NCBI RefSeq assembly: GCF_030028105.1
Contig: NC_092376.1
Span: 91,572,230 to 91,636,229 of the forward strand
Origin: Mobula birostris
Taxonomy: Eukaryota
Length of the DNA stretch: 64,000 nt
Direction of reading: 5' to 3'
Positions 19,961 through 64,000 of the stretch are shown here, piece after piece. A model generated the notes under the pieces. The model was not told the DNA's origin. It saw only the letters and a list, made by a program, of their open reading frames with translations, and did not search any database. A program made the translations under genes and the position numbers. Positions within the stretch are counted from its first letter, which is position 1. Each line of letters starts with the position of its first letter.

Positions 19961-20357
19961 TCTGCAATGAGTTGCCACAGTAGGTAGCAATGATGAGGTA
20001 TCTGAGCAGGTAATTGGCTGAGGGATAAACAGAAGACGAGATTTGCCTGTTACATGGTAGATAATCTGATCCATGTTTCCTTTGGCCCAGTCCAGCATCC
20101 TGTTGGACATCGATTGTTTCAGAAAATGTTGAATCAAAACAGCACATTTGGAATAACTGTTGCTATTTCACTACTTGCATTACACTTAGATAATAAAAGC
20201 TAACATATTTGTGAATTTCCTTTCATGATTCTACACTAAAATGACTTCAACTAGAATGGAAACAACAGGAATTCTGCAGATGCTGGAAATTCAAGCAACA
20301 CACATCAAAGTTGCTGGTGAACGCAGCAGGCCAGGCAGCATCTCTAGGAAGAGGTGC

Positions 20358-20393
20358 AGTCGACGTTTCAGGCCGAGACCCTTCGTCAGGACT
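20358..20393 (-). ncRNA. Minimal type I hammerhead ribozyme (PLE-type)
   Basis: Minus strand reads AGUC-CUGACGA-AGG(gucucgg)CCU-GAAA-CG-UC|GACU. Core is intact, stem I is AGUC/GACU, and stem III is the palindrome ACGU. Confidence 0.8.
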
Positions 20394-20461
20394 AACTGAA
20401 GGAAGGACGTTTCAGGCCGAGACCCTTCGTCAGGACTAACTGAAGGAAGCTTCCTTCAGTT

Positions 20462-20497
20462 AGTCCTGACGAAGGGTCTCGGCCTGAAACGTCGACT
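20462..20497 (+). ncRNA. Minimal type I hammerhead ribozyme (inverted copy)
   Basis: Identical motif on the plus strand, with predicted cleavage after 20493. Confidence 0.8.
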
Positions 20498-20679
20498 GCA
20501 CCTCTTCCTAGAGATGCTGCCTGGCCTGCTGCGTTCACCAGCAACTTTGATGTGTGTTGCTCAACTAGAATGGAGTGTTTTATGTAAAGTTACACTACCT
20601 CCTCCAGTTTCTTACTATCCGCTTTCTTTTGGAATTATATTCAAACCTACGATCTTAATACCTTACAACCTTTGCTTGG

Positions 20680-61985: not shown

Positions 61986-63416
61986 CAGTGCCTTGTAAAA
62001 GTATTCAACCCCCAGACTTTTGTTCATGTAAATGAGTGTTACAACCAGAGGTTCAATTTAACAGAGAATTTTTATTTGTGAATCACATATGCCTTTTTCA
62101 CATTTTTTTCACTTTTTTTCACAGTAGAGCACAAAAATCATGAAAAACTGAACTGTCAGTTCAAAAATATTCATCCCCATTTGCTCAGTGCTTAGTTGAA
62201 CCACCTCTCGTAGCCAATGCAGCCAGTAGTCTTTTTGAATAAGTCCTTATTAGCTTTGCACAACGTGATAAAGCAAGAATTGCCCATTCCTTCTTGCAAA
62301 ATTGCTCAAGCTGTGCCAGCTTAGTTTGGGGTAATGTTGGACAGCAATCTTGAGCTCTTTCGAGAGATGTTTGATCAGGTTAAGGTCAGAACCCTGACTG
62401 GGCCACTCAAAGATACCAATTTCTTCATTTGAAGCTCTAGCAGTGTGCTTTGGGCCATTTTCCTCTTGAAAGATGAACTTCCTTCCCAGTTTAAGCTTTT
62501 TGACAGAGGTTGTCAGGTTTTTAATCCATGCACTCTCTATATCTTAAAAACGCAAACACGAGGAAACCTGCAGATGTTGGAAATTCAAGCAACACACACA
62601 AAAGGCACTGGTGAATGCAGCAGGCCAGGCAGCATCTACAGGAAGAGGTACAGTCGATGTTTCGGGCTGAGACCCTTCGTCAGGACTACGAAGGGTCTTG
62701 GCCTGAAACGTCCACTATACCTCTTCCTATGGATGCTGCCTGCCCTGCTGTGTTCACCAGCACTTTTTGTGTATGTCACTCTCTATATTGAGTAGCATTC
62801 ATCTTCCCATCTATCCTGATCAGATTTCCAGTTAAATCCTGCTGCTGAAAAGCATATCCATAGTATGATACCTCCATTATACTTTACAGTAAGGCTGGTG
62901 TTACCTGGCTGATATGCAGTATTAGATTTCCGCTGCATGTGTTGAGGCCAAAATCTAATCTAGTTTCGCCTGACTACAAGACCTTCTTCCACATCTTTAC
63001 TATATCTTCTAAGTTACACTTTGCCATGAATTTTATCTCCAGTTGCAGCCAGTGATTTCTGCAGCTCACTCAGAGTGACTGTTGGCTTCACAGTGGCCTC
63101 GTTTACAAGAGACATTCTGCTCTGGCAACTAGGTGTAGAGGGGTGGACTGACCTAGGCGTGGTTTCATATTTTTTTTCCACTTTTCACGACTGCACTGAG
63201 CTCTGAAGTATGTTCAGTGCCTTTTCGATGGTCTTGTACCCTTAGCCGGATTATGTTTCTCTGTTAGAATTCCCCTGACTTGTCTTGAATGCTCTTTAGT
63301 CTTCATTTTAGTATGGTCTGTTGAAAATTCACCATACTGTTCGACCTTACCTAGAGAGAGGACATTTATTCTTATAAATACATTGAAAACAGATAATCTA
63401 ATTTTCTACATCAACA
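61986..63416 (-). mobile_element. Tc1 transposon in TNFSF13B intron 2, decayed
   Basis: Terminus CAGTGCCTTGTAAAAGTATTCAACCCC. Reverse strand EWPSQGSDLNLIKHL is a WPxQSPDLN-like motif. Confidence 0.8.
62543..62776. mobile_element. PLE-terminus fold-back inserted in the Tc1
   Basis: 12-bp TSD CACTCTCTATAT at 62531-62542 and 62777-62788. ~85-bp imperfect arms around loop 62681-62687. Hammerhead core on the minus strand at 62652-62687. Confidence 0.85.
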
Positions 63417-64000
63417 AACACAAGGAAATCTGCAGATGCTGGAAATTCAAGCAACACACACAAAATGCTGGTGGAACGCAGCAGGCCAGGCAGCATCTAT
63501 AGGAAGAAGTACAGTCGATGTTTCGGGCCGAGACCTTTCGTCAGGACTAACTGAAAAAAGGGATAGTAAGAGATTTGAAAGTGGGAGGAGGAGGGGGAAA
63601 TCCAAAATGATAGGAGAAGACAGGAGGGGGAGGGATGAAGCTAAGAGCTGGAAAGATTGGAAAAAGGGATACAGAGCTGGAGAAGGGGGAGGATCATGGG
63701 ACAGGAGGCCTAGGGAGAAAGAAAGGGATAAATAGATAGATAGTTAAATAGATAGATAGAGGCTGGGGTAAAAACGGGAGGAGGGGTATTAACGGAAGTT
63801 AGAGAAATCAATGCTCATGCCATCAGGTTGGAGGCTACCCAGATGGAATGTGAGGTGTTGTTCCTCCTACCTGAGTGTTGCCTCATCTTGACAGTAGAGG
63901 AGGCCGTGGATAGACATATCAGAATGGGAATGGGACGTGGAATTAAAATGTGTGGCCACTGGCAGATCCTGCTTTCTCTGGCAGATAGAGCGTAGGTGTT
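63417..64000 (-). mobile_element. Neptune-type PLE 3' end, continuing beyond the window
   Basis: Full terminus. Minus-strand hammerhead AGTC-CTGACGA-AAGGTCTCGGCCC-GAAA-CATC|GACT at ~63512-63548. Purine-rich body leads into the GIY-YIG C-terminus. Confidence 0.85.

What the first reader, a model, noticed from the sequence alone, without database searches (positions are those of the whole stretch)
20261..20560. Recent hammerhead-ribozyme fold-back insertion whose internal duplication ends exactly at the predicted cleavage site
Seen: a 300-bp insert with a 14-bp TSD, two mismatch-free 112-bp inverted arms and a spacer-less palindrome centre (GGAAG|CTTCC, 20449/20450). It contains three copies of CTGACGA...GAAACGTC. 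The 44-bp tandem duplication has unambiguous edges (20361 C vs 20405 G; 20406 G vs 20450 C). On the element's sense (minus) strand it ends precisely at GUC, the NUH cleavage triplet. Established: Penelope-like elements carry minimal type I hammerheads with a palindromic stem III that cleave as dimers. Inference: the junction may record the reverse transcriptase jumping onto a ribozyme-cleaved RNA 3' end and then snapping back. That would be genomic evidence that this ribozyme is active in a chondrichthyan and shapes insertions. Post-insertion slippage or an assembly error is the alternative.
Basis: partly seen in the sequence, partly recalled or inferred. Interest (0 to 1): 0.8.

Follow-up and report, generated by a model that had tools for sequence, protein, structure and literature searches.

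The report
Penelope insertion stutter at hammerhead site
This is a young, ordinary head-to-head copy of a Penelope-like jumping gene; its small extra piece ends at the cut site of the element's self-cutting RNA motif, as do many such pieces elsewhere in this genome, but a second site with no such motif is hit just as often, so cutting is suggested, not shown.

Summary
The described structure is real and the insertion is young: two related organisms carry the empty site. It is the 3' end of a Neptune/Nematis-type Penelope-like element; the inverted arms, 33-nt tail, target duplication and minimal hammerhead are all published features. What is new is population-level. The 44-bp piece belongs to a class of short re-copied fragments at the joint of such insertions, and 20 of 43 independent loci end at or are compatible with the hammerhead site GUC (about 4 expected). 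However, a site without a hammerhead, 42 nt downstream (GCGUU), is equally hot (19 of 38). Host junctions and ordinary 5' ends show no peak at the cut site. Fragments lie within the span of their own arm in 42 of 43 loci and are mirrored in none, which contradicts 'jump onto another cleaved RNA, then snap back'. Best reading: abortive re-copying of the same template while the two ends are joined, stopping at sequence- or structure-set hot spots. Ribozyme cutting remains a live cause (about 0.3): 5' restarts also cluster at the cut, and a core-mutant sister family lacks the peak (weak, by-eye count).

The parts
20247..20260 (+). Left copy of the 14-bp target-site duplication
   Evidence: single copy at the empty site in two related organisms
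20261..20405 (-). Arm 1: last 145 nt of the Penelope-like element (pLTR end), 5'-truncated at position -40 (0 = C of GAAAC)
   Evidence: same end follows the GIY-YIG reading frame in L001 and L083
20261..20293 (-). 33-nt 'tail', present on this arm only
   Evidence: 30-40-bp optional tail described in PMC8557442 and PMC11167929
20320..20324 (-). GCGTT, position +45: second genome-wide hot spot for fragment 3' ends (not a breakpoint in this copy)
20357..20394 (-). Complete minimal type I hammerhead motif (stem I UAGUC/GACUG, core CUGACGA...GAAA, palindromic ACGU stem III); predicted cut between 20362 and 20361
   Evidence: sequence; architecture from PMC4209133; cutting untested
20406..20449 (-). 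Extra 44-nt piece, positions -40 to +3; ends at GUC, no microhomology at its junction; incomplete hammerhead (no 3' strand of stem I)
20449..20450 (.). Spacer-less joint; arm 1, the extra piece and arm 2 all share the same 5' limit (-40)
20450..20560 (+). Arm 2: inverted, tail-less copy (-40 to about +70), identical to arm 1
20461..20498 (+). Complete minimal hammerhead motif in arm 2; predicted cut between 20493 and 20494
20561..20574 (+). Right copy of the target-site duplication

Best explanation
A canonical, young, 5'-truncated insertion of a Neptune/Nematis-type Penelope-like element. The protein nicks both target strands 14 bp apart and starts DNA synthesis from both ends, at the tail end and at the tail-less start 33 nt inside (shown in vitro for a relative; inferred here). 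Both arms come from one source template. While the two inner ends are being joined, synthesis starts on arm 1's own cDNA (or its own RNA) at or near the inner end, stops after a few dozen bases and starts again at that end, leaving a short extra sense piece (inferred). Where it stops is set by local sequence or structure of the template. GUC at the hammerhead site is one of two top stop sites; the other has no hammerhead. Ribozyme cutting is not needed to explain this copy.
For: Shown: layout, target duplication and empty site; GIY-YIG, CCHH and C-x4-C-x2-C linker upstream of the same end. Arms agree at two subfamily-diagnostic sites in 55 of 61 pairs against 0.35 expected. Fragment start equals arm-1 start within 2 nt in 20 of 43, lies inside in 22, beyond in 1; arm 2 does not pass arm 1's start in 28 of 30. 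Junction mirrored in 0 of 43. Stop-site rates per allowed restart position: +3 0.48, +45 0.45 (0.25 in a second search window), next tier 0.14-0.23, near zero at +12 to +20 and +36 to +41, which are predicted stems. No peak at the cut among host junctions or ordinary 5' ends. For the anole element, hammerhead mutants did not change insertion in vitro and no RNA reads began or ended at the site (PMC11167929).
Against: No single structural rule that I found predicts both top sites to the base. +3 abuts a predicted cDNA hairpin, but variants that weaken that hairpin are no rarer among +3 loci than in baseline copies, and +45 lies inside or a few bases before predicted stems. Restart points cluster at +4, the 5' end of the 3' cleavage product (10 of 38 compatible, null 0.086, p 1e-3). 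The A6C-core family shows 1 of 18 at +3 (by eye). The two hot spots are the only two CGU-H words in the 145-nt end, which is what pairing to the hammerhead's GAAACG would need. The re-priming step is inferred, not observed. In the two control sets nesting is looser (6 of 38 and 8 of 41 run beyond).
Confidence: 0.55

Rival explanations
1. The hammerhead does cut the template RNA inside the insertion complex, and the nick is recorded. Either the enzyme reads across a cut but still paired RNA and later synthesis halts where the downstream RNA piece begins, or it re-engages the 5' product of the same molecule. The +45 site would then be a cryptic second substrate or have another cause.
For: Single-base sharpness: 10 of 19 unambiguous ends between 0 and +7 fall on +3 (p 3e-5). 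Both sides of the scissile bond are enriched (3' ends at +3, restarts at +4). Six loci read literally GCGTT|GACTG (one with a further substitution), joining the two CGU-H sites. A6C-core family 1 of 18 against 20 of 43 (p 0.002); A6C slows Mg-dependent cutting by about five orders of magnitude in another hammerhead (PMC7151607, passages). The anole hammerhead cuts when the element's protein is present.
Against: Equal hot spot at +45, where a hammerhead fold costs about 24 kcal/mol over the best fold and has a C.C mismatch next to the cut. The A6C contrast is not significant against older intact-core copies (about 10 of 55, p 0.27), was tallied by eye, and is confounded by family sequence and restart range; that family has its own cluster at +9 to +11. 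The GCGTT|GACTG joints can also be parsed as 4-nt microhomology with a CpG-decayed template. Arm 1 must be copied across the site, so the RNA was uncut or read through. No peak among host junctions or ordinary 5' ends.
Confidence: 0.3
2. One reading: the reverse transcriptase jumps onto the 3' end of a different, already cleaved RNA, then the cDNA snaps back to make the second arm.
For: Enrichment at +3. One locus, L001, has the fragment continuous with about 900 nt of upstream element.
Against: Duplication mirrored in 0 of 43. Fragments nested in 42 of 43, with a pile-up at the arm's own start; among +3 loci 10 equal, 9 inside, 1 beyond.
Confidence: 0.05
3. Post-insertion slippage or repair at a palindrome, or an assembly or polishing error at this locus.
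For: No read or contig spans the duplication. The identical junction occurs only once more in 4.0 Gb, 92 kb away, which hints at local copying or a polishing artefact at one of the two loci (chance that any two of 43 loci lie that close is about 0.04, before requiring the same junction).
Against: 43 independent loci share the architecture. This junction has no microhomology. Fragments mostly sit between the inverted arm or flank and arm 1, not at random places in the arms.
Confidence: 0.1

Closest known systems
Canonical EN+ Penelope-like elements, Neptune/Nematis type (Craig et al. 2021, PMC8557442, passages; Arkhipova et al. 2013, PMC3846280, passages)
   Same: 5'-truncated copy with an adjacent inverted copy, palindrome at the inverted junction, optional 30-40-bp tail on one arm, target duplication, C-terminal GIY-YIG with CCHH and CX2-5CxxC linker.
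   Different: Short re-copied fragments at the joint with recurrent end points are not mentioned in the passages I read.
Minimal hammerheads in pLTRs of metazoan PLEs (Cervera and de la Pena 2014, PMC4209133; parts 1-2 of 4 read)
   Same: Type I core, 5-bp stem I, extra base between positions 9 and 10.1, palindromic positions 15.2/16.2 with no loop III, predicted to need a dimer.
   Different: That paper states there is no in vivo evidence of cutting. Its proposed tandem junctions from ligated circles would restore GUC/GAC, whereas these junctions join GUC to varied upstream positions.
Poseidon element PAc of Anolis (Frangieh et al. 2024, PMC11167929; parts 1-2 of 4 read)
   Same: Two initiation sites defining the tail, both target strands cut and extended, hammerhead in the pLTR.
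   Different: Different clade (no linker zinc finger). There no RNA reads ended at the hammerhead site and mutants inserted normally; genomic junction hot spots are not covered in the parts I read.
Non-LTR retrozymes (Li et al. 2026, bioRxiv 10.64898/2026.07.22.740005; part 1 of 5 and passages)
   Same: Short tandem units bearing a type I hammerhead, derived from PLE pLTRs; some loci here have grown into arrays of 3-10 units.
   Different: Units here end at or near the cut and usually lack the 3' strand of stem I, and they sit inside single inverted insertions.
L1 twin priming and 5' extra nucleotides of LINE inserts (PMC4245944, passages)
   Same: Priming from both nicks gives an inversion; extra sequence arises during 5'-end joining.
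   Different: In L1 the inverted part is a different stretch of the RNA, and the extra bases described come largely from flanks. Here both arms copy the same stretch and the extra piece is the element's own.

Membership tests
EN+ Penelope-like element | C-terminal GIY-YIG endonuclease with CCHH motif | tested here: met
   PF01541 at E 1e-4, just above cut-off, in L001; C-x2-C between the two motifs and two later histidines. L083 gave no Pfam hit at E 0.01. Tested in sister copies, not in the window insert, which has no coding part.
EN+ Penelope-like element | Reverse transcriptase upstream in the same frame | tested here: inconclusive
   RVT_1 at E 7e-6 but below the curated cut-off in L011; L083 runs from RT-like motifs to the endonuclease end in one 399-aa frame. 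No full-length copy was examined.
EN+ Penelope-like element | Inverted 5'-truncated copy, optional 30-40-bp tail, target duplication | tested here: met
   12 of 30 unselected young copies have an inverted arm within 1.4 kb upstream
Neptune or Nematis clade | CX2-5CxxC zinc finger in the RT-EN linker | tested here: met
   C-x4-C-x2-C in L001 and L083; definition from PMC8557442
Neptune clade specifically | Placement in an RT tree | not tested
   No tree built; Neptune and Nematis are not separated here
Minimal type I hammerhead | CUGANGA and GAAA core, NUH triplet, stems I and II, palindromic stem III | tested here: met
   met in two of the three copies. 24,256 exact 30-nt core copies plus 2,192 with another last base. 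No Rfam model reaches gathering score.
Minimal type I hammerhead | Self-cleavage at GUC (dimer or protein-assisted) | not testable with these tools
   No raw RNA reads were offered. The cognate monomer fold is 7 kcal/mol above the best fold.
Non-LTR retrozyme | Two or more consecutive tandem units each with a complete hammerhead | tested here: not met
   The extra unit lacks the 3' strand of stem I; definition from the bioRxiv paper

The most novel reading that the evidence does not exclude
Junction fragments in this genome are a fossil record of in vivo hammerhead cutting during Penelope-like insertion: 3' ends pile up on the scissile GUC, restarts pile up on the next base, a natural A6C core-mutant family lacks the peak, and the second hot spot is a cryptic CGU-U substrate of the same catalytic strand, with GCGUU|GACUG joints as possible ribozyme-mediated re-ligation products.
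Probability: 0.3. Interest if true: 0.72.

Novelty: new member of a known kind. Interest (0 to 1): 0.48.

Why it matters
The role of hammerheads in endonuclease-bearing Penelope-like elements is called unclear in PMC8557442, and the one biochemical study found no RNA ends at the site (PMC11167929). A genome with more than 26,000 young copies, sharp junction hot spots and a natural core-mutant sister family makes the question testable from sequence alone. Independently of the ribozyme, the nesting of arm 2 and of the extra piece inside arm 1, and the agreement of the two arms, constrain how Penelope inverted insertions are joined, a step that has not been worked out. The single locus is otherwise ordinary.

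Tried and rejected
BLAST-type search of the genome with the element end returned nothing because common words are skipped (uninformative). Rfam: no hit. No RNA holder was listed and no raw reads were served, so RNA ends could not be seen; no contig spans the duplication. Priming on a cleaved RNA end at the target: rejected, 0 of 30 parsed loci stop at +3; by eye no element-to-host junction at +3 in the other 70 listed rows (100 of 214 matches were listed). Cleavage defining ordinary 5' ends: rejected, 4 of 99 (100 of 977 matches listed; the filter favours some junctions). A capped start site at -28 leaving an extra G: rejected (preceding base G 18, C 17, T 15, A 6). Arrest at the +8/+27 hairpin as sole cause: hairpin-weakening variants are not depleted among +3 loci. 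First parser mis-read CpG-decayed junctions and fragment starts and was replaced; the arm-concordance pattern failed twice and was fixed. An upstream control gave only 9 loci from 22 matches, 4 ending at TGAC by eye. For 60 of the 90 matches only the matched string was seen, not the flanks. Whether the +45 peak persists in families reading GAGTT there was planned but not run. Earlier scan notes: nothing by sequence or place. Supplements of the papers were not opened; Fig. S2 of PMC11167929 may bear on genomic end points.

Full report
Numbering. Positions are on the element's sense strand; 0 is the C of GAAAC, so the predicted hammerhead cut lies between +3 and +4 (window 20362/20361 in arm 1).

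Observation. Three core motifs are present, but the middle one lacks the 3' strand of stem I. Single contigs of two related organisms run across the site with one copy of the target repeat, and both junctions are present in the probable source sample and a second sample of the same organism, so the insertion is real and young. No contig spans the internal duplication, so it is not read-verified. The host taxon was not tested.

What the element is. The same end follows a reading frame with RT-like motifs, a C-x4-C-x2-C linker and a GIY-YIG/CCHH domain in sister loci, the layout of Neptune/Nematis-type Penelope-like elements (PMC8557442, passages). An exact 30-nt core occurs 24,256 times, plus 2,192 with another last base. 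An inverted 5'-truncated copy, a junction palindrome and a 30-40-bp tail on one arm are the published norm (PMC8557442; PMC3846280, passages). The tail corresponds to two initiation sites, and both target strands are extended in vitro (PMC11167929, parts 1-2 of 4). Minimal, dimer-type hammerheads in these ends are known, with low activity in vitro (PMC4209133, parts 1-2 of 4). In this genome 12 of 30 unselected young copies have an inverted arm upstream, and paired arms agree at two diagnostic sites in 55 of 61 cases against 0.35 expected (these loci came mostly from my selected searches). The fold-back is therefore ordinary.

Is the breakpoint special? A pattern that catches any 34-64-nt tandem junction around the core gave 57 matches, or 43 loci after dropping 14 array-internal or segmental repeats. 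The 3' end of the extra piece is exactly +3 in 10 and compatible with +3 in 20, against simulated rates of 0.034 and 0.09. Conditioning on each restart point gives 3.9 expected (p 7e-9), and 10 of 19 unambiguous ends between 0 and +7 fall on +3 (p 3e-5).

Controls cut against a ribozyme-only reading. The same design downstream gave 56 matches, 38 loci (18 repeats dropped), with 8 exact and 19 compatible ends at +45 (GCGTT), statistically the same as +3. A third window (53 matches, 41 loci, 12 dropped) again showed +45 above its neighbours (3 exact, and 1 at +44), a warm zone at +26 to +35 and a cold zone at +36 to +41. Rates per allowed restart position were 0.48 at +3, 0.45 at +45 (0.25 in the third window) and 0.14-0.23 for the next tier; cold zones coincide with predicted stems. 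An upstream window gave 9 loci, 4 ending at TGAC by eye. Element-to-host 3' junctions show no stop at +3 (0 of 30 parsed; none by eye in the other 70 listed of 214). Ordinary 5' ends are not enriched at +4 (4 of 99).

Anatomy of the fragments. They usually lie between the tail-less inverted arm, or the flank, and arm 1. Their 5' start equals arm 1's start within 2 nt in 20 of 43 loci, lies inside it in 22 and beyond it in 1; arm 2 does not pass arm 1's start in 28 of 30. In the window copy all three parts begin at -40. The junction is mirrored in the inverted arm in 0 of 43 loci. A cDNA that jumped and then snapped back would mirror it, and a jump to an independent cleaved RNA would not respect arm 1's own limit. 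The piece was therefore copied from the same template as arm 1, most simply by an abortive start during joining of the two inner ends (inference). Nesting is looser in the control sets (6 of 38 and 8 of 41 beyond).

What keeps the ribozyme in play. The +3 peak is one base wide. In the downstream set, restarts cluster at +4 (10 of 38 compatible, null 0.086, p 1e-3), six of them reading literally GCGTT|GACTG (one with a further substitution); these can also be parsed as microhomology with a CpG-decayed template, though no undecayed counterpart appears. The two hot spots are the only CGU-H words in the 145-nt end, yet a hammerhead fold at +45 costs about 24 kcal/mol. An older sister family carries CUGCUGA in place of CUGANGA, a change that slowed Mg-dependent cutting by about five orders of magnitude in another hammerhead (PMC7151607, passages). 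By eye 1 of 18 tandem loci of that family is compatible with +3 (4 rows judged not to be tandems were left out), against 20 of 43 in the young family (p 0.002) but about 10 of 55 in older intact-core copies (p 0.27; about 14 rows left out). Flanks were seen for only 30 of the 90 matches, the families differ in sequence and restart range, and the mutant family has its own cluster at +9 to +11. This test is inconclusive. Variants that weaken the +8/+27 hairpin are not depleted among +3 loci, which counts against simple hairpin arrest.

One oddity. The exact junction occurs only once more in the genome, 92 kb away in an independent, older insertion (L001), and that is the single non-nested case. 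Local gene conversion or a polishing error at one locus is possible.

Novelty. Five literature searches on the element and its junctions (open-licence PMC and bioRxiv only) and four look-ups in earlier scan notes turned up no description of such fragments or hot spots; subscription papers and supplements were not seen. The element is a new member of a known kind. The junction signature is a new observation with a modest chance (about 0.3) of being the in vivo trace of hammerhead cutting. Interest 0.48.

Noticed in passing
L001 (G000:C8:91500547), 92 kb from the window copy: Independent, older inverted insertion with the identical 44-nt piece and junction, here in the tail-less arm and continuous with about 900 nt of upstream element; the only other exact copy of the junction in 4.0 Gb.
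   Followed up: partly
window 62531-62788: Older head-to-head insertion of a sister subfamily with a 12-bp target repeat and an asymmetric centre.
   Followed up: no
window 63417-64000: Older single-arm copy on the minus strand running off the window into the endonuclease-coding part.
   Followed up: no
L006, L081, L084, L163, L355-L359: An older, once abundant sister family has the hammerhead core CUGCUGA (A6C), so a family with a probably impaired ribozyme still spread; its tandem junctions cluster at +9 to +11.
   Followed up: partly
L050 (C9:21104370-21104881), L113, L120, L140, L337, L073: Some junction fragments have grown into arrays of 3-10 units of 36-62 nt, a possible starting point for hammerhead-bearing satellites or retrozymes.
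   Followed up: no
L135, L150, L195, L199, L202, L203: Six independent loci share the joint GCGTT|GACTG (one with a further substitution), linking the +45 hot spot to the first base after the hammerhead cut; no arm 2 in them passes +4.
   Followed up: partly
L168, L170, L172, L284: Arms with a deletion skipping the hammerhead core between short repeats at the base of the GACG/CGTC stem, possibly reverse-transcriptase skips across that hairpin.
   Followed up: no
listing (for example L188, L250, L265, L295): Fold-back centres often fall on the ACGT and GTCGAC palindromes around the cut site.
   Followed up: no
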